64,000 bases of DNA, from the IMG/VR virus record IMGVR_UViG_3300029319_000007; one strand, 5' to 3'. This DNA comes from a virus. Shown here one piece after another: positions 16,342 to 37,010 of this stretch. The notes beneath the pieces were generated by a model. The model saw nothing but the letters and a program-made list of their open reading frames with translations, was not told the origin of the DNA and made no database searches. The position numbers and the translations under genes are program-made. The stretch's first letter is position 1, and every line of letters starts with the position of its first letter.

Positions 16342-17499
16342 TTAGAACTGGAAAAGAGTAGGGTCGCTATCTGCTAACGCACTACCATTTGCCAATGTAA
16401 AAGTTTTTGTTCCTGTAAATACAAACTTCTCATCAATAATAGCATTGAACTCAAAGTCTGTGTTTTTTGTTGATAATCCTCCTGCTGCACTAAAAAAAGG
16501 TATAACCCTTGATACTTGACCAGCGGCACCAGCACTACCAGTTGATACAACGGCAAGTTGATTATCACCTGCTTTTGAACCTGCAGGTAATGTCGCACCT
16601 GTTGCTGCGATTGCTATTGAACCTGTTCCGTCTGAACTGATTGTTGCACCACCTAGATTAATTGTTTCTCCTGCTAAGAATATATCTTTCCATCTTTTAG
16701 CAGAACTACCTAAACTTCTAGTGCCATTACCATCAGGTACGATATCTTGATCTACTGCTGATAAATCACTTGCGACTTCACCAAAATCAAACTTATCAGT
16801 TGATGAATTATACTTTAATGCAAAACCATTTGCTTTTGAACTGTCGTCAACATCATCTAATTTTCTTAGATTAACTTCACCACCGCCACCTATTGATGAC
16901 ATTTGTTGTGTGACTATATCTTTAAATTTTTGAAACTCTTTTTTAACTTCATCTAAAGAACCTAATTCAGGTTGTTCTTTTAATGATTTATTTTTACTTA
17001 ATTCTTTTGATGTTAAATCTACTATGGGCGAAATGGTCTTGAGCGTTTCTGTTTCTTCGGGTTGCCTGTGTTCCAAGGTGTCCACAGATTCTCTACTGTC
17101 CACAGATTTTTTTCTTGTTCTTTTCTTTTTAGGTTTTTCTTGACCTGGCGTAATTTCTTTCGTGTGGTCTGCATAGTCTTTGCCAATTTCATAACTTTCT
17201 TCTTTCTTTGTTTCTTTTGCAAGTTGTGATAGTTGAGATAATAAACCTACTTTATCTTCTTTAGTAGTGACCTCTGGTTCTTTAAGTAATTTCTTTTTAG
17301 GTTCTGGTTGTGGTACAGGTTTTACTTTTGTTACCTTTGCAACCTGAGATAATTCTGCCATCATAGTGGCAAAAGAACTATCTTGATTTAACTCTTTTAT
17401 TTTGTCTTGTTTCTTTTGTTCTTCTTCTTGACGAACTTTACTTAGTTCATCTAGTAAAGAACCTAGATCATTAGAAACATCAACATTATCTTTACTCAT
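16342..17499 (-). CDS. Hypothetical virion-associated protein: charged helical N-half, fibre-like C-half
   Basis: GGGGEVNLRKLDDVD linker, then a LGSSAKRWKDIF fibre motif. Confidence 0.6.
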   Translation of the reverse strand: MSKDNVDVSNDLGSLLDELSKVRQEEEQKKQDKIKELNQDSSFATMMAELSQVAKVTKVKPVPQPEPKKKLLKEPEVTTKEDKVGLLSQLSQLAKETKKEESYEIGKDYADHTKEITPGQEKPKKKRTRKKSVDSRESVDTLEHRQPEETETLKTISPIVDLTSKELSKNKSLKEQPELGSLDEVKKEFQKFKDIVTQQMSSIGGGGEVNLRKLDDVDDSSKANGFALKYNSSTDKFDFGEVASDLSAVDQDIVPDGNGTRSLGSSAKRWKDIFLAGETINLGGATISSDGTGSIAIAATGATLPAGSKAGDNQLAVVSTGSAGAAGQVSRVIPFFSAAGGLSTKNTDFEFNAIIDEKFVFTGTKTFTLANGSALADSDPTLFQF

Positions 17500-17501
17500 G
17501 A

Positions 17502-17867
17502 CTATCTTGTGACATTTGGTCTAACTGTCACTATCCCTTGTATTGGTCTTGTTATTGTACTATCAGAAGCAGTAATCTCAACATCATACACATATCTACC
17601 TTCTTCTAGAGCAGCAGTTTGTGTAGATGTTAAACTTAAAGTAATCTTACCAGTTGATGTATCTGAATCTATTGCAGTAGTAAAAGATGTTGATGATGAA
17701 GATGAATATGATTTACGAATCTGTGCCGCTGCTGAATAACCTGATAAATTAAGAATACTATCGTCTTGATATACTGTGATAACTGTACTAAATGTTGCAC
17801 CTTGATCCATTGTCAAATTTGCAATGGCAGCGACATTTGGGGCAGTCGTGACTGTGGTTGTTGGCAT
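17502..17867 (-). CDS. Small Ig-like/BppU-like structural domain protein
   Basis: DQGATF, LSGYSAAAQIRK, GKITLSLT..QT..L..GRYVYDVE. Confidence 0.7.
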   Translation of the reverse strand: MPTTTVTTAPNVAAIANLTMDQGATFSTVITVYQDDSILNLSGYSAAAQIRKSYSSSSSTSFTTAIDSDTSTGKITLSLTSTQTAALEEGRYVYDVEITASDSTITRPIQGIVTVRPNVTR

Positions 17868-17891: not shown

Positions 17892-18566
17892 TTATGCTTT
17901 TTTCGCCGCCTTACCTCTAAACCATGCAGGTAAACCCACATGAGGTCTTCCATCATATATGTTATCTTCTGCACCTTTTGTTTTCGCATTATTGTAATGT
18001 AAGAAAACTTGACCACAATCTTCACCTTCAAATGCTTCACGCCAATGTTCACATAGATTACCTTTGTAAACTAACATATCTCCAGGTTTTAAGACAACTT
18101 TTTTACCGTCAGTCATATCTGAATGATACCTACCATCTTTTGCATAACCTTTTTTAGGATCATTTTCAATATAGATTGGCCATGGATCACCACCTAGATT
18201 TATAGTTGTTGAAATCTCACATGAGTATCTATCTTTATGTCTTTTCAACACATCACCTTTTTTATAGATACGAGCATATGAATATGTAGGTATTAAACTC
18301 ATACCTGTATGTTTTTCCATAACAGGTTGTGTCTTTAATAATAAAGTGTCCATTGCAATATCGCAATAGTGTGAGTATGTGTTTGGTACTTGTTCGTCAG
18401 ACCATACACCCCATTCTTCTGTAAATGGTGAAATAAATCTTTCATCAAACATTGTTCTTGCAACTTGTCGTTTCATTAAAAAATAATTATAGACAAATTC
18501 TGCTACTTTAGGTTCTACTGCTTTTTTAATTACAATATAATTGTTTTTATCAAATTCTGTTTTCAT
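17892..18566 (-). CDS. 2OG-Fe(II) oxygenase (HxD type)
   Basis: YSYARIY..GDVL.RHKDR...PGDML.Y.G...HWRE. Confidence 0.88.
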   Translation of the reverse strand: MKTEFDKNNYIVIKKAVEPKVAEFVYNYFLMKRQVARTMFDERFISPFTEEWGVWSDEQVPNTYSHYCDIAMDTLLLKTQPVMEKHTGMSLIPTYSYARIYKKGDVLKRHKDRYSCEISTTINLGGDPWPIYIENDPKKGYAKDGRYHSDMTDGKKVVLKPGDMLVYKGNLCEHWREAFEGEDCGQVFLHYNNAKTKGAEDNIYDGRPHVGLPAWFRGKAAKKA

Positions 18567-19276
18567 TGTCCTTTTACTCCGTTTACAATCTGATTGCGAA
18601 TTGCTTGAATATTAAAATGTATAAATCTAAAATCTTCATAACCATCATGTAAAGAATATTGATGTGGCATGTAAGAATTAAAAAATATTAATGTGCCAGG
18701 TTTAGGTACATAGTGTACTTTTTCATTTGCATAAGATAATTTAGTTGTATCTTTCTGTTTTAATCCTGTCATCAATGCACCTGGTCTAGGATCATGAAAA
18801 ATAGGTATTGATGTATTAGGTGAACATTTAAGATAATAAAAACCTGATATGTGATTATCAGAATGAATGTGTGTGTTATGATGACCGCCACCATGTTTAC
18901 TAAATTCTTGTACCCAACACTCTGTAAAAAACATTGTGTAATTAGACATATCAAAACCTTGTTCATCTAATATATTTCTTGCTGTATTACCACAATAATC
19001 AACAAACTCACTTAATGCAGGATCTCTTTCAATAGGTCCTGAATGATAAGACATGCCGTGATCTTTTACAGCATTATAATGTTTTGTGCCTAATTCTTTT
19101 TTTCTTTTTTCTTGGTGAGGTTTTTCTCTTTTGTATGCTTCTTTTATATGTTTGTCACATGCTTTATCAATTTTTTTAACCCATTGAGGTTTTTCAATTG
19201 TATATACAGGACAAGAAAAATAATTCTGTGTTTCTAATGTATCTATTTCATTTGTGTTATTAGTCAATAATGCCAT
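18563..19276 (-). CDS. 2OG-Fe(II) oxygenase (HxH, TIGR02466-like)
   Basis: W......HNTHIH...ISGFYYL, FHDPR, PGTLIFFNSYMPH. Confidence 0.88.
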   Translation of the reverse strand: MALLTNNTNEIDTLETQNYFSCPVYTIEKPQWVKKIDKACDKHIKEAYKREKPHQEKRKKELGTKHYNAVKDHGMSYHSGPIERDPALSEFVDYCGNTARNILDEQGFDMSNYTMFFTECWVQEFSKHGGGHHNTHIHSDNHISGFYYLKCSPNTSIPIFHDPRPGALMTGLKQKDTTKLSYANEKVHYVPKPGTLIFFNSYMPHQYSLHDGYEDFRFIHFNIQAIRNQIVNGVKGQ

Positions 19277-19279
19277 AAT

Positions 19280-19939
19280 CTATCTCCATGGTTGTCCTAG
19301 ATTCCAAACTACTAATGAATATCTAGTTCCTTTTGTCACTGGTGCAACTCTATGCCACACAAAACTTGGAAAAACAATAATAGAACCACGAGGTCTAATC
19401 TCTGTACATTCATGTATTGCTTTCTTTTTATCTTGTTCCCAATCTTTTTGATTTCTCATATCAAATTCTAAATTACCACCTGTATACTCATCAGGTTCAG
19501 ACAATGATATCGTCACAGATAACTTTCTTATTTTACCGTGTGAGTTAGGATCATCTGGTTTATTATAAGGAACATCCCAACTATCACAATGCCAACCATA
19601 ATATTGACCAGGACCATATCTTGTGAATTGACAAGATTCAGAAAAATCCCAATCAAAGTTCCAACCTGCTTTTTCGTTTGCTTCTCTAACATATGGATGT
19701 ATTTCTTTATACAACCATGCGTCATTCATCCAAACGATATCAGATTTTCTTTTTACATGAAGTTTTTTAAGTGCTGACTTTTTGAAAGTGCCGTCTTTCT
19801 TAACATTGTTTTCGTTTGCTTCTGCACCACCTGTGACAGCAATTTCAGGTTTGTGTCTTTTTCCATATTCAATTATTTCATCACATGTACGAGGAGTTAA
19901 TGCTGATTGAAAATAATAATAGTAGTTTCTTAAATTCAT
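19280..19939 (-). CDS. 2OG-Fe(II) oxygenase, prolyl-4-hydroxylase/PKHD-like (HxD)
   Basis: QFTRY..GQYYGWHCD, RKLSVTI, YTGG.L, FPSFVWHRV.PVTKGTRYSLV. Confidence 0.92.
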   Translation of the reverse strand: MNLRNYYYYFQSALTPRTCDEIIEYGKRHKPEIAVTGGAEANENNVKKDGTFKKSALKKLHVKRKSDIVWMNDAWLYKEIHPYVREANEKAGWNFDWDFSESCQFTRYGPGQYYGWHCDSWDVPYNKPDDPNSHGKIRKLSVTISLSEPDEYTGGNLEFDMRNQKDWEQDKKKAIHECTEIRPRGSIIVFPSFVWHRVAPVTKGTRYSLVVWNLGQPWR

Positions 19940-19944
19940 TTTAT

Positions 19945-19983
19945 AATCACCTTTTTAATATATAGTAGTCTTAAAAAAGACTA
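19945..19983 (-). promoter_or_regulatory. Conserved intergenic element, copy 1 (hairpin, TATATA box, AAGGTGA SD)
   Basis: Near-identical to 24232-24270; TAGTCT/AGACTA stem. Confidence 0.7.
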
Positions 19984-19984
19984 A

Positions 19985-21427
19985 TTAATTCTGATACTTA
20001 TATCTAATTATAACGACACCTGATCCACCTGCAAGACCATTACCTCCTGGAGCAGCAGCACCTGGTCCGCCTGAACCTCTATTTGCTGTACCAGCAGTTC
20101 CTGCCGCTGTACCACCTGTTCCAGCAGTACCGTCACCACAGTTACCTCTTGCGGCACCTCCGCCAGCATAACCTACACTTGAACCTGTAATTTGTGTGGT
20201 TGCACCATTACCGCCAGGTCCACCTGTATTAGTTCCTGTCATACCACCTCTTGCGGCAATACCGCCTCCGCCGCCTCCGCTTTGGTCGCCTGAACCTGGA
20301 TTGCCTGGGTGTATGCCACCAGCACCACCTTTACTACCTTGTTCAGGACTTACAGGAGGTGTATTACCTGCACCACCGCCTCTTGCACAAGTACCTGGGC
20401 CGGTACCACCTCCGCCGCCTCCACCGCCGCTTCCGCCGGGTTGACCTGGAAAGATTGTACCATTACCTGGAGGAGAACCTCCTCCTCCACCTCCGCCACC
20501 TGCGGATGTGATTGTACTGAAAACTGAATTACCACCATTTGATCCTATTGATGGTGGTTGTGGCGTTGAAGGATGTCCTGTGCCTGCGGATCCTCCTCCA
20601 CCTACTGTGATTGGATATGTTGCAGCTGGAACTGCAAGACCATCTGGTGCGACAATTGGACTTGGTGAAGAAGTGTATGAATCAAATGCTGGTGCTTTAC
20701 CTTCACGATAACCTCCAGCACCTGCACCGCCACCACGGTTACTTGCTTGAGATCCTCCACCTCCACCGCCGCCTCCAACGACTAGATAAGAAACTTTATT
20801 ACTACCTGAGGCATTACCAGCACACGAAACTATAAAGTTTGCGTCACCAGTAAATGTATGTATTTTAAAATCACCTGATGTAGTGACTGTGCCGCCTGTA
20901 GCAGTCACATATTTTGAAGTGAGATTAGCAACATTACTTTCATTTGTAAATAACCAACCTTTTGTTGAATCAATGTAAACTAGTGTTAGAGAAGCACGAT
21001 TTGTGTCTATTACAGCGTCAACAGCAACACCTTGTATGTTGTGACTATTTCTTTGAATAGTAAGATTATTTGTACCAAAGTTAGCAGCATAATCTTTGAT
21101 TGATACCATATCTCCTGCACTTGCACTTGCAGGTAATTTTACAAGACCAGCAGCACTTGAATTATTTACGAAATATCCTCTACCTGCAACCATAGTAGTG
21201 ACTGTACTTCCGTCTGATACAACGACTGCTTGCCATTGAACAGGCGGTACAGTACCACTTGCACCTAGTGCTATTGACTGTCCGTTTACTGTAATACTTG
21301 AATTTGATAATTTTGCATTAGCGATTGAACCCGCTAATTTTGCACTTGTTATAGTACCAGGTGCGATATCTGCCGCTGCTACTGAACAATCTACTAAACC
21401 TTTTGTGCCTATCTGATCTACTGCCAT
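19985..21427 (-). CDS. Gly/Pro-rich adhesin-like fibre protein, paralog A
   Basis: LAGSIANAKL, a gp34-N-like LPASASAGD..IKDYA domain, poly-Gly blocks, GNTPPVSP.QG, C-terminal GGSGVVIIRYK. Confidence 0.8.
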   Translation of the reverse strand: MAVDQIGTKGLVDCSVAAADIAPGTITSAKLAGSIANAKLSNSSITVNGQSIALGASGTVPPVQWQAVVVSDGSTVTTMVAGRGYFVNNSSAAGLVKLPASASAGDMVSIKDYAANFGTNNLTIQRNSHNIQGVAVDAVIDTNRASLTLVYIDSTKGWLFTNESNVANLTSKYVTATGGTVTTSGDFKIHTFTGDANFIVSCAGNASGSNKVSYLVVGGGGGGGGSQASNRGGGAGAGGYREGKAPAFDSYTSSPSPIVAPDGLAVPAATYPITVGGGGSAGTGHPSTPQPPSIGSNGGNSVFSTITSAGGGGGGGGSPPGNGTIFPGQPGGSGGGGGGGGTGPGTCARGGGAGNTPPVSPEQGSKGGAGGIHPGNPGSGDQSGGGGGGIAARGGMTGTNTGGPGGNGATTQITGSSVGYAGGGAARGNCGDGTAGTGGTAAGTAGTANRGSGGPGAAAPGGNGLAGGSGVVIIRYKYQN

Positions 21428-21432
21428 AATAC

Positions 21433-21440
21433 TATTTATA
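21433..21440 (-). promoter_or_regulatory. Late promoter TATAAATA, 5 nt from ATG
   Basis: TATAAATA-GTATT-ATG. Confidence 0.75.
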
Positions 21441-21444
21441 CCCC

Positions 21445-22839
21445 TTATGATCCTTCTTGATATCTATATCTTAAAACTACTATACCTGAACCACCATTCG
21501 AACCTGCGGCACCTGAACCAGTTGCACCACCGCCACCGCCTCCTCTATTTGCTGTGCCTGCTGTACTTGCTTGTGGTGTTGAAGGTCCGCCACCAGTACC
21601 ACCTCCGCCTGGACCACCGGCACCAGGACCACAAGGTGAACCGCCACCGCCACCACCTGCATAAGTGACTGACGAAGCAGTTATTGAGTTTGCAGTACCA
21701 TTACCCCCATTACCTCCAGCATTAGAAGCATCGGGACCTGGTGTGCCTGCAGTAGCAGCACCGCCGCCACCTCCACCACCATCACCACCCGAAGGTGGGT
21801 ATGGCGCACCATTACCACCATTGTTGCCTTGAGGTGGACTTACTGGCGGTGTATTACCTGTACCACCTGTTTTAGTGCTGCCACCTTTGGCACCACCGCC
21901 ACCTGATCCGCCATTTTGGCCTGCACCGTATGAACCGTTTGCGTCTGAACCACCTCCACCTCCCCCAGCAGATGTGATCGTACTAAAAACTGAATTTGAA
22001 CCGTTGCCACCATAATTGTTTGCTGGTGGACCTTTACCTGCACCGCCACCACCTACTGTGATAGGATAAGTTGTTGCTGATGATAATGTTAAACCACAAC
22101 CAGGAAAATCATGTCTGAATCCTCCTGCACCTCCACCACCAGAGTTATCACAACCTCCGCCACCACCACCGGCGACTACAAGATATTGAACTTTATTTGT
22201 ACTACCAGTACCAACACCATTTGCTAAAGTAGAAACAATAAAGTTTCCACTACCAGTGAATGTGTGTATCTTATCATTACCTGATGTTGTGATCGTACCA
22301 CCTGTCGCAGTTAGATATTGGGGTCCTTGTAAATTTCCTACATTGTGTTCATCTGTGAATAACCAACCTTTTGTACTATCTACATAAACTAAAACAACAC
22401 TAGCACGATCAGTTTCTAATATTGCGTCAGCAGCAGTACCTTGTATGTTGTGACTATTTCTTTGTATTGTTAAATTATTAGTGCCAAAGTTTTCTGAATA
22501 ATCTTTTATTGCAATTGTATCACCTCGTGAAGCACTCGCAGGTAATTTTACTAAACCTGCAGCACTAGCGTTATCTACGAAATAACCACGACCTGCGACC
22601 ATAGTAGTCACAGTAGAACCGTCTGATGTAATCTTTGATTGCCAATCTTGTAAATTAAGAGCGTTATCAGAACCACCTAGTGATATTGCCTCACCACCTA
22701 TTGTGATTGTGGTATTTGCTAGTTTATCATTACCTATAGAACCTGCTAGTTTTGCATTAGTAATAGTGCCAGGGGCAAAATCTGCTGCCGCTACTGAGCA
22801 ATCTACAATGCCTCTAGAACCTATCTTAGAAATCGCCAT
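21445..22839 (-). CDS. Gly/Pro-rich adhesin-like fibre protein, paralog B
   Basis: Same architecture as paralog A. Confidence 0.8.
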   Translation of the reverse strand: MAISKIGSRGIVDCSVAAADFAPGTITNAKLAGSIGNDKLANTTITIGGEAISLGGSDNALNLQDWQSKITSDGSTVTTMVAGRGYFVDNASAAGLVKLPASASRGDTIAIKDYSENFGTNNLTIQRNSHNIQGTAADAILETDRASVVLVYVDSTKGWLFTDEHNVGNLQGPQYLTATGGTITTSGNDKIHTFTGSGNFIVSTLANGVGTGSTNKVQYLVVAGGGGGGCDNSGGGGAGGFRHDFPGCGLTLSSATTYPITVGGGGAGKGPPANNYGGNGSNSVFSTITSAGGGGGGSDANGSYGAGQNGGSGGGGAKGGSTKTGGTGNTPPVSPPQGNNGGNGAPYPPSGGDGGGGGGGAATAGTPGPDASNAGGNGGNGTANSITASSVTYAGGGGGGSPCGPGAGGPGGGGTGGGPSTPQASTAGTANRGGGGGGATGSGAAGSNGGSGIVVLRYRYQEGS

Positions 22840-22844
22840 GAAAC

Positions 22845-22852
22845 TATTTATA
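22845..22852 (-). promoter_or_regulatory. Late promoter TATAAATA, 5 nt from ATG
   Basis: TATAAATA-GTTTC-ATG. Confidence 0.75.
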
Positions 22853-22854
22853 AT

Positions 22855-23379
22855 TTATGATACACTTATATCCCAAGATATTATTCTTTTAATTTTCTTA
22901 CTTTCATTAGGTGGACTAAAATGTTGAATAAATTGAGGTACTACAACGATTGTGCCTTCTTGTACTGGTATAGGATAATATACTGTTCTATCAGATACAT
23001 AATCATTCCAAGGTTGCATATAGTTTGTCATAGGTGCGTCTTTAGGTTGATCAAGATATAATATACCCGATAGACCTGTTGAACCGTGATTATGTACAGA
23101 ATGATAATCACCTTTCTTATAACTTACTGACCATGCGTCATCTATTCTAATATCTCTTTGAAGTTTATCAGATAACATTGTTAATTCTTCTTCTAGTATA
23201 ACAATTAAATCTTCTTTAAATTGAATACGAGGCGATTGTCTGTTTGTAGAAAAAGTTTGTATGCCATGTTTACTTTCAGGATGTCTTTTACATAGTGATT
23301 GTAATTTCTTTTTCTTTTCTTTAAAGTTTATAGTAGGTATTGTCCAATAAGGTATATTGAACATTGTCTCTTGAATCAT
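22855..23379 (-). CDS. 2OG-Fe(II) oxygenase (HxH type)
   Basis: WSVSY.KGDYHSVHNH..LSGILYL, EGTIVVVP.FIQH, RIISW. Confidence 0.85.
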   Translation of the reverse strand: MIQETMFNIPYWTIPTINFKEKKKKLQSLCKRHPESKHGIQTFSTNRQSPRIQFKEDLIVILEEELTMLSDKLQRDIRIDDAWSVSYKKGDYHSVHNHGSTGLSGILYLDQPKDAPMTNYMQPWNDYVSDRTVYYPIPVQEGTIVVVPQFIQHFSPPNESKKIKRIISWDISVS

Positions 23380-23588
23380 TCTTCTTCTCCTGCACCACTA
23401 ATTATGCTCATGACAGTATCAAAATTTTCTTCTACTGTCCAACTATTATCAGGCGTCCATAGTGTTGTATGTTTACCCTCATCAGATTTCATTACATCTT
23501 CAAAAATAGATTGTACTTTTGTTATGTCGATTGCAAGTTTTTTACCTTCAAAAGGTGCACTTGCATTTGTAAATATTCTAAACTTCAT
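23376..23588 (-). CDS. Small protein, weakly FlbD/SwrD-like
   Basis: Pattern AIDITKVQSIFE...TTL......VEENFDTV..II; GGAG SD. Confidence 0.4.
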   Translation of the reverse strand: MKFRIFTNASAPFEGKKLAIDITKVQSIFEDVMKSDEGKHTTLWTPDNSWTVEENFDTVMSIISGAGEEE

Positions 23589-23597
23589 TATATACTC

Positions 23598-24227
23598 CTA
23601 AAAATAAGTTTCTGGTAATTGTTTTCTGTTCATTATTCTTAAATTTCCTGATACACTTACTCTTGTACAATCAGATTTATATGGTAAAACCCAATGTTGT
23701 AGTAATGCAGGAAAAATATACATATCACCTGTTTGAGGTAATATTGCATGACCTGTTGTTGCCCATGGTGGGCGTGACATAGTGCCATATTCAAATTGCA
23801 AAGAACCTGGTTTTGTTCCTGTGCCTTCAAACTCTTTTATTTCTTTTTCTATTTCTTCAGGTACATCTACAAATATAACAAAAGAAAAATCACCACCATG
23901 TGTATGTAAAGGATTAAAATCACCTGGTCTCATAAAGTTAACCCATAAATCATCATATGCAATATGCACTTCTCTTTTTTCTAAACCGTGATATTCTAAA
24001 TGACCTTGTCTATATGCGTCAAAAATAGGGGATACTTGTTTATAAAACCAATCTGTGGTTTCATCATTATACTTGACTTGTCTTTTTACATGACCTGCAA
24101 GTTTCTTGTGATAAGATTCTAAATCTTTCTTACCGTCTTCGTGTAGTCTTTCTATTATATGATTGTCTATCTTTGTTGATCCTACATAAGGACCCCAATG
24201 TAAATAACGCATATTAATATTTTTCAT
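23598..24227 (-). CDS. 2OG-Fe(II) oxygenase (HxH type)
   Basis: WVNFMRPGDFNPLHTH, GDMYIFPALLQHWV, RVSVSGN. Confidence 0.88.
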   Translation of the reverse strand: MKNINMRYLHWGPYVGSTKIDNHIIERLHEDGKKDLESYHKKLAGHVKRQVKYNDETTDWFYKQVSPIFDAYRQGHLEYHGLEKREVHIAYDDLWVNFMRPGDFNPLHTHGGDFSFVIFVDVPEEIEKEIKEFEGTGTKPGSLQFEYGTMSRPPWATTGHAILPQTGDMYIFPALLQHWVLPYKSDCTRVSVSGNLRIMNRKQLPETYF

Positions 24228-24231
24228 TTCA

Positions 24232-24270
24232 AATCACCTTTATATTATATAGTAGTCTAAAAAAAGACTA
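24232..24270 (-). promoter_or_regulatory. Conserved intergenic element, copy 2
   Basis: Near-identical to 19945-19983; includes a 16-mer also present at 6478-6493. Confidence 0.7.
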
Positions 24271-25713
24271 TTATTGAGACTTGTATCTTATGATAACAAT
24301 TCCTGAACCACCTGCAGCACCTGGCGCACTATTACCGCCTGACGCCCCACCAGCACCACCTCCTGTATTAGCAGAACCTGCATTACCGTTTTGTGTTGCT
24401 TGAGGTGTTGGTGAACCTTGAGTGACACCGTAACCACCAGCACCACCGCCACCTGAACCGCCTGCCGCTTGAACTGGTGCAAAAGGCGAAACACTTGGGT
24501 TATTCGAATAACGAGAACCCCCACCGCCGCCACCTGCTCGTGTGACATTTGAACCTGTTATAGTATTTGGTGAACCAGCGCCACCTGCACCTCCACCACC
24601 AGGAGATGAATCTCCATTACCAGCAGCGCCACCTGCACCGCCACCACCTCCACTTGTTGCTTGAGGAGTAGGTCCTGTGCCTGTGCCACCATTATTACCT
24701 TGTGAAGGACTTACTGGAGGTGTGTTGCCTGAACCACCTGATGTGCCTGGTCCACTTGCACCCCCACCTGATCCGCCATCACTACCATTTGTGACTTCTT
24801 TACCACCTTTACCACCACCAGTAGATGTAATTGTTGAGAAAACTGAATTTGATCCATTACCAGCACAGTTTGCAAAAGCGTTTGGCGCCCCAGCAGTACC
24901 ACCTGCACCTACTGTAATAGGATATGTTTGAACTGATACAGGAAAAGCACCTGCATTACAACCAGGACTAGGAAAAGATGTTCTATGACCACCTGCACCT
25001 CCGCCACCGCCACCTGATCCGCCACCACCAGCGACTACTAAGTAATCTACTGCTGTTGACCCAGCAGGTAAACCTGCGTTTGATACGACAAAGTTTCCAT
25101 CACCTGTAAATGTGTGAACTCTAAAATCTCCTGTTGTTGTGACTGTGCCACCTGTTGCCTCTACAAAAGGTGTTTGTAAAGAAGTAATATTACTTTCATT
25201 ATAATACAACCAACCTTTTGTTGCGTCAACATATACTAATCTGATTGACGCTTTATCTGTTTTTAATAAACCATTAGCAGTATTACCTTGTATCTTATGA
25301 CCATTGCGATTAATTGTCACACCATTTGAACCAAATGTGCCTGCATAATCTTTTATTGCGATATAATGACCTGCACTTGCACTACTAGGTAATGTGACTG
25401 TGTGTGTTGCTGATGATGTATCTATAAAATAACCACGACCTGAAACCATTGTAGTCGTTGTAGATCCGTCTGCTGTTATAACTGCTTGCCAATCTATAGT
25501 TGGCACACTACCTGAAGCACCTAATGTTATTGATTGACCACCAACTGTTATAGCACTATTTGCCAATTTAGCGTTTGCAATAGAACCTGCAAGTTTTGCT
25601 GTTGCGATAGAACCTGGTGCAATATCTGCTGTTCTTAATGTTCCGTCATCAATCTTTGCTGCTGTGACTGAACTATCTGTTAAACCTGATGTTGTGACTT
25701 TAGTTATTGCCAT
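24271..25713 (-). CDS. Gly/Pro-rich adhesin-like fibre protein, paralog C
   Basis: Same architecture: SVFSTITS.GGG, GNTPPVSPSQG, GSGIVIIRYK. Confidence 0.8.
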   Translation of the reverse strand: MAITKVTTSGLTDSSVTAAKIDDGTLRTADIAPGSIATAKLAGSIANAKLANSAITVGGQSITLGASGSVPTIDWQAVITADGSTTTTMVSGRGYFIDTSSATHTVTLPSSASAGHYIAIKDYAGTFGSNGVTINRNGHKIQGNTANGLLKTDKASIRLVYVDATKGWLYYNESNITSLQTPFVEATGGTVTTTGDFRVHTFTGDGNFVVSNAGLPAGSTAVDYLVVAGGGGSGGGGGGAGGHRTSFPSPGCNAGAFPVSVQTYPITVGAGGTAGAPNAFANCAGNGSNSVFSTITSTGGGKGGKEVTNGSDGGSGGGASGPGTSGGSGNTPPVSPSQGNNGGTGTGPTPQATSGGGGGAGGAAGNGDSSPGGGGAGGAGSPNTITGSNVTRAGGGGGGSRYSNNPSVSPFAPVQAAGGSGGGGAGGYGVTQGSPTPQATQNGNAGSANTGGGAGGASGGNSAPGAAGGSGIVIIRYKSQ

Positions 25714-25715
25714 TT

Positions 25716-27221
25716 TTATCCTGACTGATACTTATATCTTACTATTACTACGCCTGAACCTCCAGCGCCGCCTGGGTTAGAACTACCACCACAGAATCCT
25801 GGTGAACTACCTGCACCTCCACCGCCCCCTTTATTAGCAGAACCAGCGTTGCCTGCAGTATTTCCTGATGGACCTGAAGCACCTCCGCCACCAGGACCAG
25901 CAGAACCTTGATCATATGAAACTCCGTGTATCGCACAAGCAGTACCACCGCCACCACCAGCATATCCTACAGGAGAACCTGTGATATGAGTAGTTGCACC
26001 GTTACCGCCATTACCAGCAACACCAGAACCTCCAGCAGAACCACCGTTACCGCCAGCGCCTCCACCACCACCTGAACCTGGTGTGTTAGTCGCATAATTA
26101 CCTTGACCACCTGGATTGCCTTGTGATGGACTCACGGGTGGTGTATTACCTGCACCAACAACTGCTCTTGGAGGTGGACTACTATTTTGTCCTGCACCAC
26201 CGCCTGAACCACCAGCGCCGCCGTCTGCAACTGGATTAGGTTGAGCGTCTCCTTGTTTTGCACCAGAACCGCCACCGGCAGATGTGATTGTACTAAAAAC
26301 TGAATTTGAACCTGCGTTTCCTCTACTACTACCAGGATGTGGACTACCACCTGCACCACCGCCACCTACTGTGACTGGATAAGAACCAGGCGAAGCAGAA
26401 ACAGTTAAACCTGCTGGTGCGTTTAGAGGAGAAACTGTGTATGAAGATTTAGGTGCGTCTTTACCTTCTCTAAATCCTCCAGCACCACCACCGGCGCCAC
26501 CAGCGCCTGCACCTGAACCACCACCTGCAATGACTAGATATGAAACTTTATCCCCACCACCAGCAGAATTACCTACTGACGCAACAGAGAAAGTGCCATC
26601 ACCTGTGAAAGTGTGTATCTTATCATTACCTGAAGTTGTGACTGTGCCACCTGTAGCAGATGTGAATGTTGCTTTTTGTAGATCAGAAACATCATGTTCG
26701 TCTGTGAATAACCAACCTTTTGTACTATCTACATAAACCATTGTGACTGACTTACGATTAGTTTTTAATAAACTATCAGCAGCAAGACCTTGTATGTTAT
26801 GACTATTTCTTTGTACTGTCGTATTATTAGTGCCAAAATTACCAGCATAATCTTTAATAATAATTGTATCACCTCTAGAAGCACTCGCAGGTAATTTTAC
26901 TAAACCAGCAGCACTAGAGTTATCTACAAAATATCCTTGACCTGCAACCATTGTAGTCACAGTAGAACCATCAGAAGTAATCTTTGATTGCCAATCTACA
27001 TCAACACCTACAGTATGTGAACCACCCAAAGAAACTGAGGTTCCTCTAATTGTTATTGCTGAGTTTGCTAATTTTGCATTTGTGATTGCGTCATCTGCTA
27101 ATCTATCTGACGCTACATTACAATCAGGAAAGTCTGCGGCAACAAGAACTCCGTCAGCAACTTTTGCTGCTGTGACAGCACTTGAATCTAATGCGTTTTT
27201 AGGAAGTTTCGTTATTGCCAT
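25716..27221 (-). CDS. Gly/Pro-rich adhesin-like fibre protein, paralog D
   Basis: Same architecture. Confidence 0.8.
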   Translation of the reverse strand: MAITKLPKNALDSSAVTAAKVADGVLVAADFPDCNVASDRLADDAITNAKLANSAITIRGTSVSLGGSHTVGVDVDWQSKITSDGSTVTTMVAGQGYFVDNSSAAGLVKLPASASRGDTIIIKDYAGNFGTNNTTVQRNSHNIQGLAADSLLKTNRKSVTMVYVDSTKGWLFTDEHDVSDLQKATFTSATGGTVTTSGNDKIHTFTGDGTFSVASVGNSAGGGDKVSYLVIAGGGSGAGAGGAGGGAGGFREGKDAPKSSYTVSPLNAPAGLTVSASPGSYPVTVGGGGAGGSPHPGSSRGNAGSNSVFSTITSAGGGSGAKQGDAQPNPVADGGAGGSGGGAGQNSSPPPRAVVGAGNTPPVSPSQGNPGGQGNYATNTPGSGGGGGAGGNGGSAGGSGVAGNGGNGATTHITGSPVGYAGGGGGTACAIHGVSYDQGSAGPGGGGASGPSGNTAGNAGSANKGGGGGAGSSPGFCGGSSNPGGAGGSGVVIVRYKYQSG

Positions 27222-27226
27222 ATGAC

Positions 27227-27234
27227 TATTTATA
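27227..27234 (-). promoter_or_regulatory. Late promoter TATAAATA, 5 nt from ATG
   Basis: TATAAATA-GTCAT-ATG. Confidence 0.75.
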
Positions 27235-27790
27235 TCAATTGATAGTGAGTTGATAAATTTACAAGAAACCCACTATTTTTGTTTGTTTCAATATAATGTT
27301 CAATATCTGAACTAAACAATATAAATTGATTATATTTTATCTCTTGTTTCCACAATCTATGTTTATTTCTACCATCATCATATTTAAATATCACATTACA
27401 TGGTTCTGGTGTTTCTGATACACAATATAAACAAGATATATCTGGTGAGTTTTCTAAATCCCATGGATTTACATGATTATGATAATTAATATTTTCACCT
27501 GATTGTTGAATGATTGCTCGAACATTTAAATCTGTTTTAGTTGGAGGAACAAGTGTTCTACCATGCAATTCTCTAAAATGATCTCTTATGTAATCAAAGA
27601 ACCATTGTATGTGTTGATGATACGGTAAAGCGATATAATCATCTAAATGCCAAAATTGATCGTCTGTAAGTTTGTTTTCTAAACTAAAATTAGTTAAACA
27701 ATGATTTTCAATTAGTTTTGGTTTTAAAAATGAGATATCACTTACCGTACCTGCGACTAAAAATTTTTCGCTTAAAAGTATTTTTTCCAT
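27230..27790 (-). CDS. Divergent 2OG-Fe(II) oxygenase-like protein (HxH)
   Basis: YHNH...SPDISCLYCV...FILFSSDIEHYI..N. Confidence 0.7.
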   Translation of the reverse strand: MEKILLSEKFLVAGTVSDISFLKPKLIENHCLTNFSLENKLTDDQFWHLDDYIALPYHQHIQWFFDYIRDHFRELHGRTLVPPTKTDLNVRAIIQQSGENINYHNHVNPWDLENSPDISCLYCVSETPEPCNVIFKYDDGRNKHRLWKQEIKYNQFILFSSDIEHYIETNKNSGFLVNLSTHYQLI

Positions 27791-27808
27791 AACAACACCA
27801 TAACAATC

Positions 27809-28348
27809 TTATTGTGCAGCCCAAGATTTAGATGAACTATTCCATTCATATACTTTTGAAGTATCTGAACTTGCAGGTCTAGTTGCTTCCCAACCTTTTG
27901 CATTGTTTGCTTGATATGCTGCTTCATCCCAATAGATACTATATCTTTGAGTTGAACTATCTGTTTCTGTATAAGTCTCTACAGTTGGATAAGTTATTGG
28001 TGCATCCCAACCAGCAGTTGATGTATTCTTCGACCAACTAGTATATGGTTGTGGACCAAAAAATAATTGATTATCTTCATCCCATGAGTAACCTACACCT
28101 GCATAGTTGCCTCTAAATGCTTTTGATTGATCACTAGACAGATTGCCATCAGCGTCATAGTGTTTTCCACCTCTAGTGTTATAAGATGTTTGAATCCACA
28201 TTTGGGCAGGCCATCCGTGTATCTCTTGTAATCTTTGTTGACCTACTGATTCATCTTCTTGATTATCAGCATTCAACATATCACTATTATTCAAAACATG
28301 AACAGCGATTACTTTACCGTTCACACCTAGTTTTGCAAAATGTGCCAT
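27809..28348 (-). CDS. Conserved phage protein often adjacent to Gly-rich fibre genes (possible adaptor/chaperone)
   Basis: MAHFAKL, WIQTSYN, FRGNYAG.GY, PQPY.SW, W.API.YP; strong AAGGAG SD. Confidence 0.6.
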   Translation of the reverse strand: MAHFAKLGVNGKVIAVHVLNNSDMLNADNQEDESVGQQRLQEIHGWPAQMWIQTSYNTRGGKHYDADGNLSSDQSKAFRGNYAGVGYSWDEDNQLFFGPQPYTSWSKNTSTAGWDAPITYPTVETYTETDSSTQRYSIYWDEAAYQANNAKGWEATRPASSDTSKVYEWNSSSKSWAAQ

Positions 28349-28410
28349 TTTATTCTCCTTTTAATTATGAACTACCTCTCACAAGTCAGTCCAATATTAT
28401 ACTAAACTAT

Positions 28411-29829
28411 TTATTGAAACTTGTATCTAATAATGACAACACCTGAACCACCAGCAGAACCTGCCTGTGCCCCCGAAGCACCGCCTCCACCACCGCCTCT
28501 ATTTGCAGTAGCAGATGTTGCTGCTGAACCGTTATCAGCACCATTACCTGCACCAGTACCACCGGTGCCTTTCGAAGTGTTCCAAGTAGGATTACTTAGA
28601 CCACCACCGCCACCGCCGCCACTATAAACTACAGGCGAACCAGTAATGTGATTTGTTGCACCAGCACCTCCAGCACCAGCAGCATTTCCTGGCACATTTA
28701 AATCTGCACCATCATTACCACTACCAGAACCACCGCCTGCACCACCTCTTACAGAAGGCACACTGCCTTGATTACCTCGACCACCGTCACCTCCTTGAGG
28801 CGGACTCACAGGTGGTGTATTACCATTACCTCGTCCTTGATTCCAACCGCCGCCACCGCCAGATCCACCATTCTCAGCAGAATCGCCAGGACCACCTGAT
28901 CCTCCTCTACCGCCACCAGCGGATGTGATTGTTGAGAAAACTGAATTTGAACCACTTGCACTTGAACTAGGTCCAGGTGCAGCACCGCCACCACCTACTG
29001 TGATAGGAAAAGTTGCTGCTGTAATTGGAACACCTGATGTTGAACTATTTGGGTGTACAGTATATGAACCATGATTACCTGTTTTAGCAGAACGAAGACC
29101 TCCGCCTCCACCTCCACCTGCTTGTTCACCGGGTGTGTTTCCACCACCGCCGCCACCAGCAAGAACAAGATAATCAATAGTGTTATTAGGTCCTAAATTT
29201 GATACAACAAAGTTTCCATCACCAGTAAATGTATGTATCTTCTCATCACCTGATGTTGTGATTGTACCACCTGTAGCAACAATTTGTGTTTGTAAATCTG
29301 CAACATTTGATTCTACTATAACTAACCAACCCTTTGTTGCGTCAATGTAAACATATGTGACTGCTGCTCTGTTTGTTTTTATTTCTTGATCATTAGCAAC
29401 ACCTTGAATGTTATGACCATTTCTCTGAACTGTTAAACTGTTTGTGCCAAAATTACCAGCATAGTCTTTTACAATAATAGTATCGCCTGCACTAGCACTA
29501 GCAGGTAGTTTTACTAAACCTGCCGCACTTGAATTATTTACGAAATATCCTCTACCCGCCACCATTGTAGTCACAGTAGAACCATCTGAAACAACAACTG
29601 ACTGCCATGCTATTTTACCTACATCAGCAGAAGCACCTAATGCTGTTGCTGAACTATTAATAGTAATCGATTCGTTTGCTAATTTTGCGTTTGCAATAGA
29701 ACCTGCTAATTTTGCATTTGTTAAAGTACCTGGTGCAAAATCAACATTAGCAAGACCACCATCTGCTACTTCAGTAGTAGTGATTGATTCGTCTGTTAAT
29801 CCGTTTGTTGTGACTTTTGTTAAGGGCAT
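28411..29829 (-). CDS. Gly/Pro-rich adhesin-like fibre protein, paralog E (start likely ATG 29829, MPLTKV)
   Basis: Aligns with the other paralogs from MPLTKVTT; the longer start overlaps the upstream gene. Confidence 0.8.
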   Translation of the reverse strand: MPLTKVTTNGLTDESITTTEVADGGLANVDFAPGTLTNAKLAGSIANAKLANESITINSSATALGASADVGKIAWQSVVVSDGSTVTTMVAGRGYFVNNSSAAGLVKLPASASAGDTIIVKDYAGNFGTNSLTVQRNGHNIQGVANDQEIKTNRAAVTYVYIDATKGWLVIVESNVADLQTQIVATGGTITTSGDEKIHTFTGDGNFVVSNLGPNNTIDYLVLAGGGGGGNTPGEQAGGGGGGGLRSAKTGNHGSYTVHPNSSTSGVPITAATFPITVGGGGAAPGPSSSASGSNSVFSTITSAGGGRGGSGGPGDSAENGGSGGGGGWNQGRGNGNTPPVSPPQGGDGGRGNQGSVPSVRGGAGGGSGSGNDGADLNVPGNAAGAGGAGATNHITGSPVVYSGGGGGGGLSNPTWNTSKGTGGTGAGNGADNGSAATSATANRGGGGGGASGAQAGSAGGSGVVIIRYKFQ

Positions 29830-36791: not shown

Positions 36792-37010
36792 TTACTTTAC
36801 CAATTTTCCTAATAATTCTTTTATTTCAGATAACTCTGCTTTTAAATTATTTATTTCTCTTACAGCATATCTCAAATCATTATTACTTTTTCTTGCCTCT
36901 CTAACTCTTTGCATATAAATTGAATAGGCATTTTTATCTGTGTTCACAATACCATTAGATACTCTTTCTCTTACTAATGATGTGTGCCCTTCTACTTTTA
37001 TATAACTCAT
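36792..37010 (-). CDS. Small coiled-coil protein downstream of the DUF4815-like gene
   Basis: KVEGH..LVR....GIVNTD...Y...EINNLK.ELSEIK.LL. Confidence 0.6.
   Translation of the reverse strand: MSYIKVEGHTSLVRERVSNGIVNTDKNAYSIYMQRVREARKSNNDLRYAVREINNLKAELSEIKELLGKLVK

What the first reader, a model, noticed from the sequence alone, without database searches (positions are those of the whole stretch)
17892..29829. Alternating array of Gly/Pro-rich adhesins and 2OG-Fe(II) oxygenases: candidate phage virion-hydroxylation system
Seen: in transcription order the block is adhesin E, conserved protein, oxygenase; adhesins D and C, oxygenase, small ORF, oxygenase; adhesins B and A, three oxygenases. 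That is 5 adhesin paralogs and 6 oxygenases (2 HxD..H, one P4H/PKHD-like; 4 HxH..H), all co-oriented inside the late structural region, several behind late boxes. All five adhesins share GNTPPVSP(E/P/S)QG and carry Pro-rich loops (PSTPQPPS, PYPPS, SSPPP) between poly-Gly strands. Known: poly-Gly repeats form polyproline-II bundles in T-even gp38 adhesins; 2OG oxygenases are abundant in marine T4-like phages with mostly unknown substrates; P4H enzymes act on PPII peptides. Inference: these enzymes are dedicated late modifiers that hydroxylate Pro (or other residues) on the receptor-binding proteins, tuning stability, receptor specificity or later glycosylation, rather than metabolic or DNA-repair genes.
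Basis: partly seen in the sequence, partly recalled or inferred. Interest (0 to 1): 0.88.

Follow-up and report, generated by a model that had tools for sequence, protein, structure and literature searches.

The report
Phage fibre genes travelling with oxygenases
In this marine SAR11 phage, five glycine-rich tail-fibre genes, a small fibre-accessory gene and a set of iron/2-oxoglutarate oxygenase genes form a cassette that moves as a unit between unrelated phages, which makes the untested idea that the enzymes hydroxylate the fibres worth an experiment.

Summary
The anatomy is real. On the minus strand of a T4-like pelagimyophage host-recognition region lie five paralogous fibre proteins, one small conserved protein ("cons") and six oxygenase-fold genes.

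- **Fibres:** each has a CBA120-TSP4/T4-gp10-like anchor and a cyanophage Pam3 gp24-like glycine-rich head.
- **Oxygenases:** five have conserved metal triads. The sixth belongs to a family that has mostly lost them.
- **"Ferrochelatase":** the gene labelled this way in the literature (oxy1) is a 2OG-oxygenase fold.

All 58 evaluable contigs fetched through oxy1 carry fibre/cons genes directly upstream. The same order occurs in three unrelated SAR11 phage types, some cyanophages and two freshwater phages.

The link is one-way. Nine complete phages have fibre plus cons and no such oxygenase. Oxygenase relatives also sit in replication or metabolic-gene contexts.

A proline-rich loop (NTPPVSP) tracks oxygenase presence, but this cannot be separated from shared ancestry. 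Hydroxylation itself is untested; I give it about 0.4.

The scan met the same kind of cluster before on other DNA (e1-3448693, e1-3448694, e1-3279377). The oxygenase/"ferrochelatase" co-location is published; the tie to the fibre cassette is not, as far as my searches of the held library show.

The parts
17892..18566 (-). oxy1: Fe(II)/2OG oxygenase fold with HxD...H. This is the family mislabelled 'ferrochelatase' (phrog_2954).
   Evidence: PHROG hit; no Pfam ferrochelatase hit; invariant H110, D112, H174; AF2 pLDDT 92 and Foldseek matches to prolyl hydroxylases and other 2OG enzymes.
18563..19276 (-). oxy2: PF13759-type oxygenase, HxH...H.
   Evidence: Pfam 5.6e-14; invariant H136, H138, H205; PDB relatives 3bvc and 2rg4 are uncharacterised.
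19280..19939 (-). oxy3: PF13640 (P4H/PKHD-type) oxygenase, HxD...H plus RxS (phrog_61).
   Evidence: Pfam 1.9e-16; PKHD-type hydroxylases 3dkq and PiuC; invariant H117, D119, H196, R206, S208.
19959..19983 (-). Junction element between glyA and oxy3: 7-bp hairpin, then a TATATATTA box; an AAGGTGA ribosome-binding site follows.
   Evidence: Sequence; two copies in the window against 0 expected; conserved before oxy3 in 11 related loci.
19985..21427 (-). glyA: glycine-rich receptor-binding fibre paralog.
   Evidence: Gly_rich_2; alignment.
21433..21440 (-). TATAAATA late-type box, 5 nt before the glyA ATG.
21445..22839 (-). glyB: fibre paralog.
22845..22852 (-). TATAAATA box before glyB.
22855..23379 (-). 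oxy4: PF13759-type oxygenase, HxH...H.
   Evidence: Pfam 1.8e-09; PHROG 81.
23376..23588 (-). Small conserved ORF (70 aa), function unknown.
   Evidence: No family hit; homologs between oxy5 and oxy4 in L063, L068 and L069, and after oxy1 in L033.
23598..24227 (-). oxy5: PF13759-type oxygenase, HxH...H.
   Evidence: Pfam 5.2e-14.
24246..24270 (-). Second copy of the hairpin + TATATAATA junction element, between glyC and oxy5.
24271..25713 (-). glyC: fibre paralog.
25716..27221 (-). glyD: fibre paralog.
27227..27234 (-). TATAAATA box before glyD.
27230..27790 (-). oxy6: divergent PF13759-like protein. The His triad is present in this copy but lost in most of its family, so it may be a pseudo-enzyme.
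   Evidence: No Pfam or PHROG hit; hhalign probability 55%, E 1e-4; triad columns.
27809..28348 (-). cons: small fibre-accessory protein (phrog_7759). It sits directly downstream of a Gly-domain fibre gene in all 15 fetched cultured or complete phage records where both were detected.
28411..29829 (-). glyE: fibre paralog, and the one that was modelled. Residues 71-176 form the TSP4/gp10-like anchor; residues 180-472 form the Pam3 gp24-like TNF-like + Gly-rich head.
   Evidence: AF2 pLDDT 77; Foldseek and VIA-align; hmmsearch to TSP4, E 8e-14.

Best explanation
Shown. The block is part of the host-recognition cluster of a T4-like SAR11 phage (pelagimyophage). It encodes three kinds of gene.
- Five paralogous receptor-binding fibres attached at the baseplate. 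Each has a TSP4/gp10-like anchor and a Pam3 gp24-like glycine-rich head.
- One small accessory protein, cons, which sits directly downstream of a fibre gene of this head type in all 15 fetched cultured or complete phage records where both were detected.
- An optional oxygenase module. Its core is the pair oxy3 (P4H/PKHD type) and oxy1 (the so-called ferrochelatase, in fact a 2OG-oxygenase fold). It is extended by PF13759-type paralogs and one mostly degenerate copy.

Fibre, cons and the oxy3/oxy1 pair are inherited and exchanged as one cassette among unrelated phages of SAR11.

Inferred.
- The oxygenases are cytoplasmic enzymes made together with the fibres.
- They hydroxylate the fibre head, most plausibly prolines of the conserved NTPP(V/T)SP loop, before or during folding.
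- The modification tunes stability or receptor binding. It is not essential for the fold.

The confidence figure refers to this inferred step.
For: 1. Reverse linkage. Of 80 IMG/VR loci fetched through oxy1 (55-94% identity), all 58 with enough upstream DNA have fibre/cons genes directly before the oxygenase run. The one apparent exception is an ORF-overlap artefact.
2. The same order recurs on unrelated backbones:
   - HTVC023P-type podophage: gly x4 - cons - oxy6 - oxy3 - oxy2 - oxy1.
   - HMO-2011-type podophage HTVC033P: gly - cons - gly - oxy3 - oxy2 - oxy1.
   - Pelagimyophages HTVC008M and Mosig.
   - Cyanophages S-CAM8, S-MS29 and ACG-2014b keep a Gly-domain gene near oxy3-oxy1(-cons).
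3. The order holds through the whole oxy1 tree despite changes in fibre copy number, domain duplications, an inversion and insertions.
4. HTVC027P has the same phage type and host strain as HTVC023P, yet it lacks fibre, cons, oxy1 and oxy3 together.
5. Two small freshwater phages each have exactly one 2OG gene, and in both it sits next to cons and the fibre gene.
6. Enzyme type: oxy3 is PF13640/PKHD. The best structural matches of oxy1 are protein prolyl hydroxylases. phrog_3531 joins an oxy1-like and an oxy3-like part in one protein.
7. Loop correlation. The loop between GGSGGGG and QG has at least 2 Pro in 96% of 196 fibre domains with oxy3/oxy1 in the locus. It is Pro-poor (GSGTSG) in 11 of 13 domains from nine 2OG-free genomes.
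8. Gene layout: same orientation, gaps of 8-62 nt, fibre genes on both sides, and a conserved junction element before oxy3 and oxy5.
Against: - There is no direct evidence of modification or binding.
- Nine complete phages carry fibre + cons with no PF13640 or PF13759 gene at all. In phage Melnitz the oxygenases lie at least 27 kb from the fibre genes. The fold therefore does not need these enzymes.
- The solved relative, Pam3 gp24, was described as needing only a chaperone (PMC9608196).
- In Mosig, S-CAM8, S-RIM32 and Syn30, oxygenase homologs sit with heme oxygenase, pcyA, endonuclease V, carbamoyltransferase or replication genes.
- The HTVC008M fibre-like protein lacks the Pro loop although oxy3 and oxy1 are adjacent. 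In that phage the oxygenases are on the opposite strand.
- The loop correlation has no phylogenetically independent support: one supported independent pair.
- Foldseek scores for oxy1 are nearly as good for small-molecule and nucleic-acid 2OG enzymes as for prolyl hydroxylases.
Confidence: 0.4

Rival explanations
1. Hitch-hiking metabolic or host-takeover genes. The oxygenases act on small molecules, nucleic acids or host proteins. They sit beside the fibre genes only because the fibre region is the permissive, recombination-prone island of these phages, so whole blocks are swapped together.
For: - The region is the known hypervariable host-recognition cluster, which holds many non-fibre genes (PMC7029224).
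- In Mosig the oxygenases are contiguous with endonuclease V, heme oxygenase and pcyA.
- In S-RIM32 and Syn30, oxy1-like genes lie among early or replication genes.
- HTVC027P has other 2OG genes near its tail genes but no Gly fibres.
- The fibre family functions without the enzymes in nine genomes.
- The literature treats these genes as auxiliary metabolic genes (PMC9599517, PMC11561400).
Against: - A generic hotspot does not explain why this particular enzyme pair is next to this particular fibre family in 58 of 58 contigs and on three backbones.
- It does not explain why the adjacency survives inversions, insertions and copy-number changes.
- It does not explain why the single 2OG gene of two small phages lies exactly there.
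- It does not explain why 53-61 kb podophages keep 3-4 such genes in that order.
Confidence: 0.3
2. Receptor or envelope modification. The oxygenases alter a host surface molecule, for instance LPS or another envelope component, as the Fe/2OG enzymes LpxO and KdoO do. This would block superinfection or stop progeny from sticking to debris. They would be co-inherited with the fibre because both concern the same receptor.
For: - Linkage with receptor-binding genes across backbones that share the SAR11 host.
- Glycosyltransferases in the same islands have been proposed to change the host surface (PMC7029224).
- That Fe/2OG lipid A and Kdo hydroxylases exist is from my own knowledge; I did not test it here.
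Against: - By eye, the translations show no N-terminal hydrophobic signal or membrane segment.
- The enzymes are far more conserved (oxy1 55-94%) than the fibre heads they accompany, the opposite of what specificity matching predicts.
- Similar cassettes occur in phages of cyanobacteria and of freshwater hosts.
Confidence: 0.12
3. The target or partner is another assembly component rather than the fibre head. That could be cons or a neighbouring fibre protein. Alternatively, some copies act non-catalytically as binding or scaffold proteins during fibre assembly.
For: - cons lies between fibre and oxygenases in most arrangements, and directly after oxy1 in S-CAM8 and S-MS29.
- The oxy6 family keeps its position while losing the metal ligands in 11 of 19 members.
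Against: - cons occurs with the fibre in nine genomes that have no oxygenase.
- Few cons positions are conserved, and no Pro is invariant.
- The metal triads of oxy1, oxy2 and oxy3 are invariant, which argues for catalysis.
Confidence: 0.1

Closest known systems
Co-located '2OG-Fe(II) oxygenase + ferrochelatase' genes of HTVC023P-type pelagiphages (Wittmers et al. 2022, PMC9599517; also PMC11561400)
   Same: These are the same gene families. HTVC023P gp65, gp66 and gp67 are homologs of oxy3, oxy2 and oxy1 (phmmer E 1.7e-87, 5.4e-64 and 6.8e-82). The adjacency of the 'ferrochelatase' to an oxygenase is reproduced here.
   Different: Those papers read the genes as iron/heme-related metabolic genes and do not mention fibre or glycine-rich genes (0 occurrences). 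Here the 'ferrochelatase' is shown to be a 2OG-oxygenase fold. The pair is also shown to lie directly downstream of a fibre + cons cassette on several phage backbones.
Cyanophage Pam3 tail fibre gp24 with its chaperone gp25 (PDB 7YPX; PMC9608196)
   Same: The head of glyE (residues 194-472) superposes on gp24 with Z 15.2, rmsd 2.7 A over 184 residues and 32% identity. A small gene follows the fibre gene, as gp25 follows gp24.
   Different: The anchor here is TSP4/gp10-like rather than an alpha-helical bundle. There are five paralogs. cons shows no detectable sequence similarity to solved chaperones. The Pam3 paper describes only a chaperone as needed for fibre assembly.
T-even gp38 adhesin (phage S16) and the ALK/LTK glycine-rich domain
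   Same: They share the glycine-rich lattice architecture. ALK/LTK domains match with Z 6-7 over about 125-140 residues. The Pam3 paper relates gp24 to S16 gp38.
   Different: These proteins are not gp38 family members. They are about 480 residues long with their own baseplate-type anchor, they are not tip proteins of a gp37 fibre, and S16 gp38 did not appear among the matches.
CBA120 TSP4 / T4 gp10 attachment domains
   Same: Residues 71-176 match with Z 16.6, rmsd 1.5 A and 29% identity. hmmsearch gives E 8e-14.
   Different: What follows the anchor is a glycine-rich head, not a tailspike depolymerase.
Viral structural-protein hydroxylases of giant viruses (PBCV-1 prolyl 4-hydroxylase, mimivirus collagen lysyl hydroxylase; from my own knowledge, not tested here)
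   Same: A virus-encoded Fe/2OG enzyme of the P4H type encoded together with Pro-rich structural proteins.
   Different: Those are eukaryotic viruses with collagen-like or (PAPK)n substrates and with biochemical proof. My searches of the held paper library found no report of a tailed-phage virion hydroxylation.

Membership tests
Fe(II)/2-oxoglutarate oxygenase superfamily | Double-stranded beta-helix fold | tested here: met
   oxy2-oxy5 match Pfam PF13640 or PF13759 above cut-off. For oxy1, the AF2 model (pLDDT 92) gives Foldseek E about 1e-8 to many 2OG enzymes. oxy6 is supported only weakly (hhalign probability 55%).
Fe(II)/2-oxoglutarate oxygenase superfamily | Conserved metal-binding triad (HxD/E...H or a variant) | tested here: met
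   The triad is invariant in the oxy1, oxy3 and oxy2/4/5 alignments. This does not hold for the oxy6 family: 11 of 19 members lack it, although the window copy has it.
Fe(II)/2-oxoglutarate oxygenase superfamily | 2OG-dependent turnover | not testable with these tools
   Needs enzyme assays.
Protein prolyl 4-hydroxylase | P4H-type catalytic domain | tested here: inconclusive
   oxy3 is PF13640, and its nearest solved relatives are PKHD-type hydroxylases of unknown substrate. The top structural matches of oxy1 are PHD and P. putida P4H, but other 2OG classes score almost equally.
Protein prolyl 4-hydroxylase | Hydroxylation of a Pro-containing protein or peptide substrate | not testable with these tools
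   Only a raw correlation between a Pro-rich fibre loop and oxygenase presence, without phylogenetic support.
Ferrochelatase (the database label of oxy1) | Ferrochelatase domain or fold | tested here: not met
   No Pfam ferrochelatase hit at E 0.1. The model is a beta-helix oxygenase fold with HxD...H. Atlas clusters named 'putative ferrochelatase' carry PF13640.
Pam3 gp24-type glycine-rich tail fibre (Pfam Gly_rich_2) | PF21722 match and a TNF-like + glycine-rich head | tested here: met
   Pfam E 2.2e-13 and 4.5e-10. VIA-align Z 15.2 to 7ypx_A and 13.4 to the Bxb1 tail tip.
Pam3 gp24-type glycine-rich tail fibre (Pfam Gly_rich_2) | Dedicated chaperone encoded downstream | tested here: inconclusive
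   cons is in the right position in all 15 fetched cultured or complete phage records where both genes were detected. No similarity to gp25 or Tfa proteins was detected, and cons was not folded.
T-even gp38 adhesin | Small monomeric tip protein that docks on gp37 | tested here: inconclusive
   The architecture differs: about 480 residues with a TSP4/gp10-like anchor. S16 gp38 was not among the listed matches, which does not exclude distant kinship of the glycine-rich part.
TSP4/gp10-type baseplate attachment domain | Sequence and fold match to the N-terminal attachment domain | tested here: met
   hmmsearch E 8e-14 to 7rej. Z 16.6 with rmsd 1.5 A; T4 gp10 Z 12.9.

The most novel reading that the evidence does not exclude
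Tailed phages of oligotrophic aquatic bacteria carry a portable receptor-binding cassette in which Fe(II)/2OG oxygenases hydroxylate a proline-rich loop of the glycine-rich fibre head. The phrog_61 / phrog_2954 pair belongs to it; both families rank among gene categories reported as enriched in marine viromes. This would be the first enzymatic hydroxylation of a phage virion protein. It would also give a substrate to part of the long-unexplained marine-phage 2OG-oxygenase repertoire.
Probability: 0.35. Interest if true: 0.85.

Novelty: new variant of a known kind. Interest (0 to 1): 0.6.

Why it matters
2OG-Fe(II) oxygenases and the so-called ferrochelatases are reported as abundant and seasonally enriched genes of marine phages. 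They are currently read as metabolic genes with unknown substrates (PMC9599517, PMC11561400).

Three results here change how those counts should be read:
- The 'ferrochelatase' is an oxygenase.
- The oxy3/oxy1 pair is tied to one family of receptor-binding fibres.
- The whole cassette moves between myophages and podophages of SAR11.

Together they turn an open question into a bench test with cultured phages, or with E. coli co-expression. If the enzymes do modify the fibre, host recognition in the most abundant marine phage-host pair would depend on a post-translational step that genome-based host prediction ignores.

Tried and rejected
- **Complex prediction** of oxy3 + oxy1 + the fibre head: score 0.00, verdict 'no answer'. 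It counts neither for nor against binding.
- **Whole genome:** none is held for this window.
- **Megablast** of the block against cultured phages found nothing.
- **hhalign** of the oxy1 family against the oxy3 family gave no similarity. The fold was settled by modelling instead.
- **cons:** a profile search against solved structures gave only chance-level hits. The Atlas search returned only unnamed viral clusters.
- **Independent-pairs test** of the Pro-loop / oxygenase correlation had one supported pair and no power.
- **Fibre contigs without the trio:** searching five such contigs for oxy1 found nothing, but they are 5-24% complete fragments, so this shows nothing.
- **Promoter and terminator scans** were at chance level. 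The count of TATAAATA boxes is also at chance (9 against 8.6 expected); only their strand and position are notable.
- **PiuC:** a literature search for its substrate gave nothing useful.
- **S16 gp38** did not appear among the structural matches.
- **Rejected reading:** that all six genes are active oxygenases (oxy6).
- **Rejected reading:** that the fibre needs the enzymes to fold (the nine oxygenase-free genomes).

Full report
**Context**

The window is the structural module of a T4-like marine myophage, nearly all on the minus strand. It holds the major head protein, portal, sheath, terminase and neck proteins, then a long fibre region, then baseplate gp8/gp6-like genes.
- No cultured phage matches at the DNA level. 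The nearest protein relatives are Pelagibacter phages.
- The block 17892-29829 lies in what Zaragoza-Solas et al. call the hypervariable host-recognition cluster of pelagimyophages. That cluster sits between the neck genes and VrlC (PMC7029224).

**Checking the observation**

- The five Gly-rich proteins are 56-64% identical. All carry G-N-T-P-P-V-S-P-x-Q-G.
- The family is huge in marine metagenomes: at least 7,754 clusters. The motif is nearly invariant in a 69-sequence sample.
- oxy2, oxy4 and oxy5 are PF13759 with an invariant HxH...H. oxy3 is PF13640 with HxD...H and RxS.

Two of the six 'oxygenases' needed work.
- **oxy1** has no Pfam oxygenase hit, and databases call it ferrochelatase (phrog_2954).
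  - Its family has invariant H110-x-D112...H174.
  - A pLDDT-92 model is a typical 2OG-oxygenase fold. Its best matches are protein prolyl hydroxylases, although many other 2OG enzymes score almost as well.
  - The ferrochelatase label is therefore wrong.
- **oxy6** has the three histidines in this phage, but 11 of its 19 sampled relatives have lost them. Its similarity to the PF13759-like profile is weak. It is best called a degenerate copy. An earlier agent of this scan saw the same thing in another pelagiphage (e1-3448693).

All oxygenase genes I could detect in the 64 kb lie inside the block.

**What the Gly-rich proteins are**

An AlphaFold model of glyE (pLDDT 77, above 85 in the folded parts) has two known parts.
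- Residues 71-176 match the N-terminal attachment domain of CBA120 tailspike TSP4: Z 16.6, rmsd 1.5 A, 29% identity, and sequence E 8e-14. They also match T4 gp10 and gp9.
- Residues 180-472 match the TNF-like plus glycine-rich head of the cyanophage Pam3 fibre gp24: Z 15.2, rmsd 2.7 A over 184 residues, 32% identity.
- The same head region matches a Bxb1 tail-tip protein (Z 13.4) and, more weakly, the ALK/LTK glycine-rich domain (Z about 7).

They are therefore baseplate-attached receptor-binding fibres. 'Adhesin' is fair; 'gp38' is not the right family.

**The small conserved protein**

cons (phrog_7759) turned out to be the most faithful partner of the fibre.
- Its homologs occur in 33 cultured or complete phage records. 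These span pelagiphages, cyanophages, the OM43 phage Melnitz, roseophages, a siphophage of an actinobacterium and freshwater podophages.
- Using an HMM of the fibre head built here, the cons gene in all 15 fetched records where both were detected is directly preceded by a Gly-domain gene.
- By position it resembles the Pam3 chaperone gp25 (PMC9608196), but no sequence similarity to any solved protein was found.

*Forward.* 51 IMG/VR loci were fetched with glyE. Most show gly-gly-oxy3-oxy2-oxy1 or gly-cons-oxy6-gly.

*Reverse.* 80 loci were fetched with oxy1 at 55-94% identity. All 58 with enough upstream DNA have fibre/cons genes directly before the oxygenase run. The single 'none' is an ORF-overlap artefact.

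*Across backbones.* This matters more than the contig counts. The same order occurs on unrelated phages:

| Phage | Type | Order |
|---|---|---|
| HTVC023P | 61-kb podophage | gly x4 - cons - oxy6 - oxy3 - oxy2 - oxy1 |
| HTVC033P | HMO-2011-type podophage; its cultured relatives infect Roseobacter or SAR116 | gly - cons - gly - oxy3 - oxy2 - oxy1 |
| HTVC008M | pelagimyophage | fibre-like - cons, with the oxygenase block inverted |
| Mosig | pelagimyophage | fibre-like - small gene - oxy3 - oxy1 |

- The window's oxy1 and oxy3 are closer to those of HTVC033P (64% and 59%) than to those of other myophages (45% and 40%). The cassette has therefore crossed morphotypes.
- HTVC027P shares type and host strain with HTVC023P, yet lacks fibre, cons, oxy1 and oxy3 together. 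It has other genes in their place.
- Three cyanophages keep a Gly-domain gene within a few kb of oxy3-oxy1(-cons).
- Two small freshwater phages own exactly one 2OG gene each, and it abuts cons and the fibre gene.
- On an oxy1 tree the fibre...oxy3...oxy1 order runs through all clades except two cyanophage outliers.

**The limits of the linkage**

The association is one-directional.
- Nine complete genomes with fibre + cons have no PF13640 or PF13759 gene anywhere: HTVC025P, CRP-143, Greip, CRP-207, phiPsal1, ctn9Y15, cta1H496, ct2KA10 and zth2-2.
- In Melnitz the oxygenases lie at least 27 kb from the fibre genes.
- Some pelagimyophage contigs have a fibre pair followed directly by the next fibre-assembly gene with no trio. 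These are fragments, so the trio could be elsewhere.
- Oxygenase relatives also occur away from fibres. In Syn30 they sit among replication genes. In S-RIM32 they sit among small early-type genes.
- In Mosig the cluster continues into endonuclease V, heme oxygenase and pcyA.

So the fibre does not need the enzymes. An enzyme that depends on its substrate would show exactly this asymmetry, and so would a mobile block that simply stays intact.

**A candidate target**

The loop between the conserved GGSGGGG and QG motifs of the head differs by class.
- In 196 domains with oxy3/oxy1 in the locus, 96% have at least two prolines and 85% have PP, typically N-T-P-P-V/T-S-P.
- In 13 domains from the nine oxygenase-free genomes, and in Melnitz, the loop is short and Pro-poor (G-S-G-T-S-G). 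Only two of those 13 have two or more prolines.
- Mosig and S-CAM8 carry a different Pro-Gly-rich insert there. The HTVC008M protein lacks the loop altogether.

The raw table for de-duplicated domains is 137 / 10 / 2 / 13. On a tree built without the loop columns there is only one supported independent contrast, so the correlation cannot be told apart from shared ancestry. The motif region is modelled with pLDDT near 89, so it is part of the folded head rather than a floppy linker.

**Expression signals**

- All nine TATAAATA boxes of the window are on the coding strand, each just upstream of a minus-strand ORF start. Those in the block lie 5 nt before the ATG with no ribosome-binding site between. 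Three precede glyA, glyB and glyD. Their number alone is at chance.
- The junctions glyA-to-oxy3 and glyC-to-oxy5 carry a duplicated element: a 7-bp hairpin, TATATAWTA, then AAGGTGA. It does not occur by chance and is conserved at the same junction in 11 related loci.
- This fits separate tuning of oxygenase output within the late fibre operon, but it is not proof of timing.

**Weighing the explanations**

| Explanation | Weight | Main argument |
|---|---|---|
| Enzymes hydroxylate the fibre head | 0.40 | Specificity and persistence of the adjacency, P4H-like enzyme types, the Pro loop |
| Hitch-hiking accessory genes of a recombination-prone island | 0.30 | Fits the metabolic-gene neighbours and the oxygenase-free fibres, but not the specificity |
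| Modification of a host surface molecule matched to the fibre | 0.12 | Weakened by the high conservation of the enzymes and the absence of export signals |
| Another assembly component as target, or non-catalytic roles | 0.10 | cons position, and oxy6 keeping its place while losing its metal ligands |

The complex prediction gave no answer and carries no weight.

**Novelty**

The oxygenase/'ferrochelatase' co-location is published and read as metabolic (PMC9599517, PMC11561400). The fibre fold is published as well (PMC9608196). This scan also met similar clusters before on other DNA: e1-3448693, e1-3448694, e1-3279377 and e1-5703893.

Four things are, as far as my literature searches show, not reported:
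- The oxy3/oxy1 pair is bound to the Gly-fibre + cons cassette across phage families.
- The 'ferrochelatase' is an oxygenase.
- One paralog family is catalytically degenerate.
- A Pro-rich head loop tracks the enzymes.

This is a new variant of known kinds, with a clear experiment attached.

Noticed in passing
window 52070-52936 (-): A 288-aa Gram-negative porin homolog (Pfam Porin_4, E 2.5e-12) is encoded inside the baseplate region of the phage. It is an unusual accessory gene.
   Followed up: no
window 9127, 13721, 21433, 22845, 27227, 35879, 44417, 49757, 50508 (-): All nine TATAAATA boxes lie on the coding strand, each just upstream of a minus-strand ORF start; those in the block lie 5 nt before the ATG with no Shine-Dalgarno sequence between. 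Late mRNAs here may be nearly leaderless. By contrast the oxygenase genes oxy3 and oxy5 and cons have strong AAGGTGA / AAGGAG sites.
   Followed up: partly
window 58439-58927 (-) and 59477-59923 (+): A TnsA-like endonuclease (PF08722, E 7e-20) and a staphylococcal-nuclease homolog (PF00565, E 5e-16) sit at the strand switch next to baseplate genes.
   Followed up: no
PHROG phrog_3531 (362-aa profile), seen through window 17892-18566 and 19280-19939: oxy1 matches profile positions 50-168 and oxy3 matches positions 186-361 of the same family. Some phages therefore encode the two as one fused protein, which suggests the pair works together.
   Followed up: partly
L150 4145-4993, L151 4037-4984 and 5361-6290, L152 3949-4986; Greip gp59 (L147): Gly-domain fibre proteins upstream of cons are annotated in GenBank as 'baseplate wedge protein gp6' or 'DNA stabilization protein'. 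These labels look wrong.
   Followed up: partly
L149 3994-4899 (Pontimonas phage phiPsal1): The Gly-domain reading frame spans two annotated short genes (phiPsal1_022 and 023). The fibre gene there may be mis-called.
   Followed up: no
L054 7736-10636 (HTVC008M): The five-gene oxygenase block is inverted relative to the neck and fibre genes around it. It has its own TATATATA box 6 nt before the first ATG.
   Followed up: partly
window 17502-17867 (-) and 16342-17499 (-): In pelagimyophage contigs a 121-aa protein (phrog_1084 / phrog_3304, 'L-shaped tail fiber assembly') and a 385-aa fibre protein usually follow oxy1 directly. The oxygenase trio is thus flanked by fibre genes on both sides.
   Followed up: partly
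window 37010-43000 (-): A 1,996-aa ORF lies in the fibre region between the block and gp8. I did not examine it.
   Followed up: no
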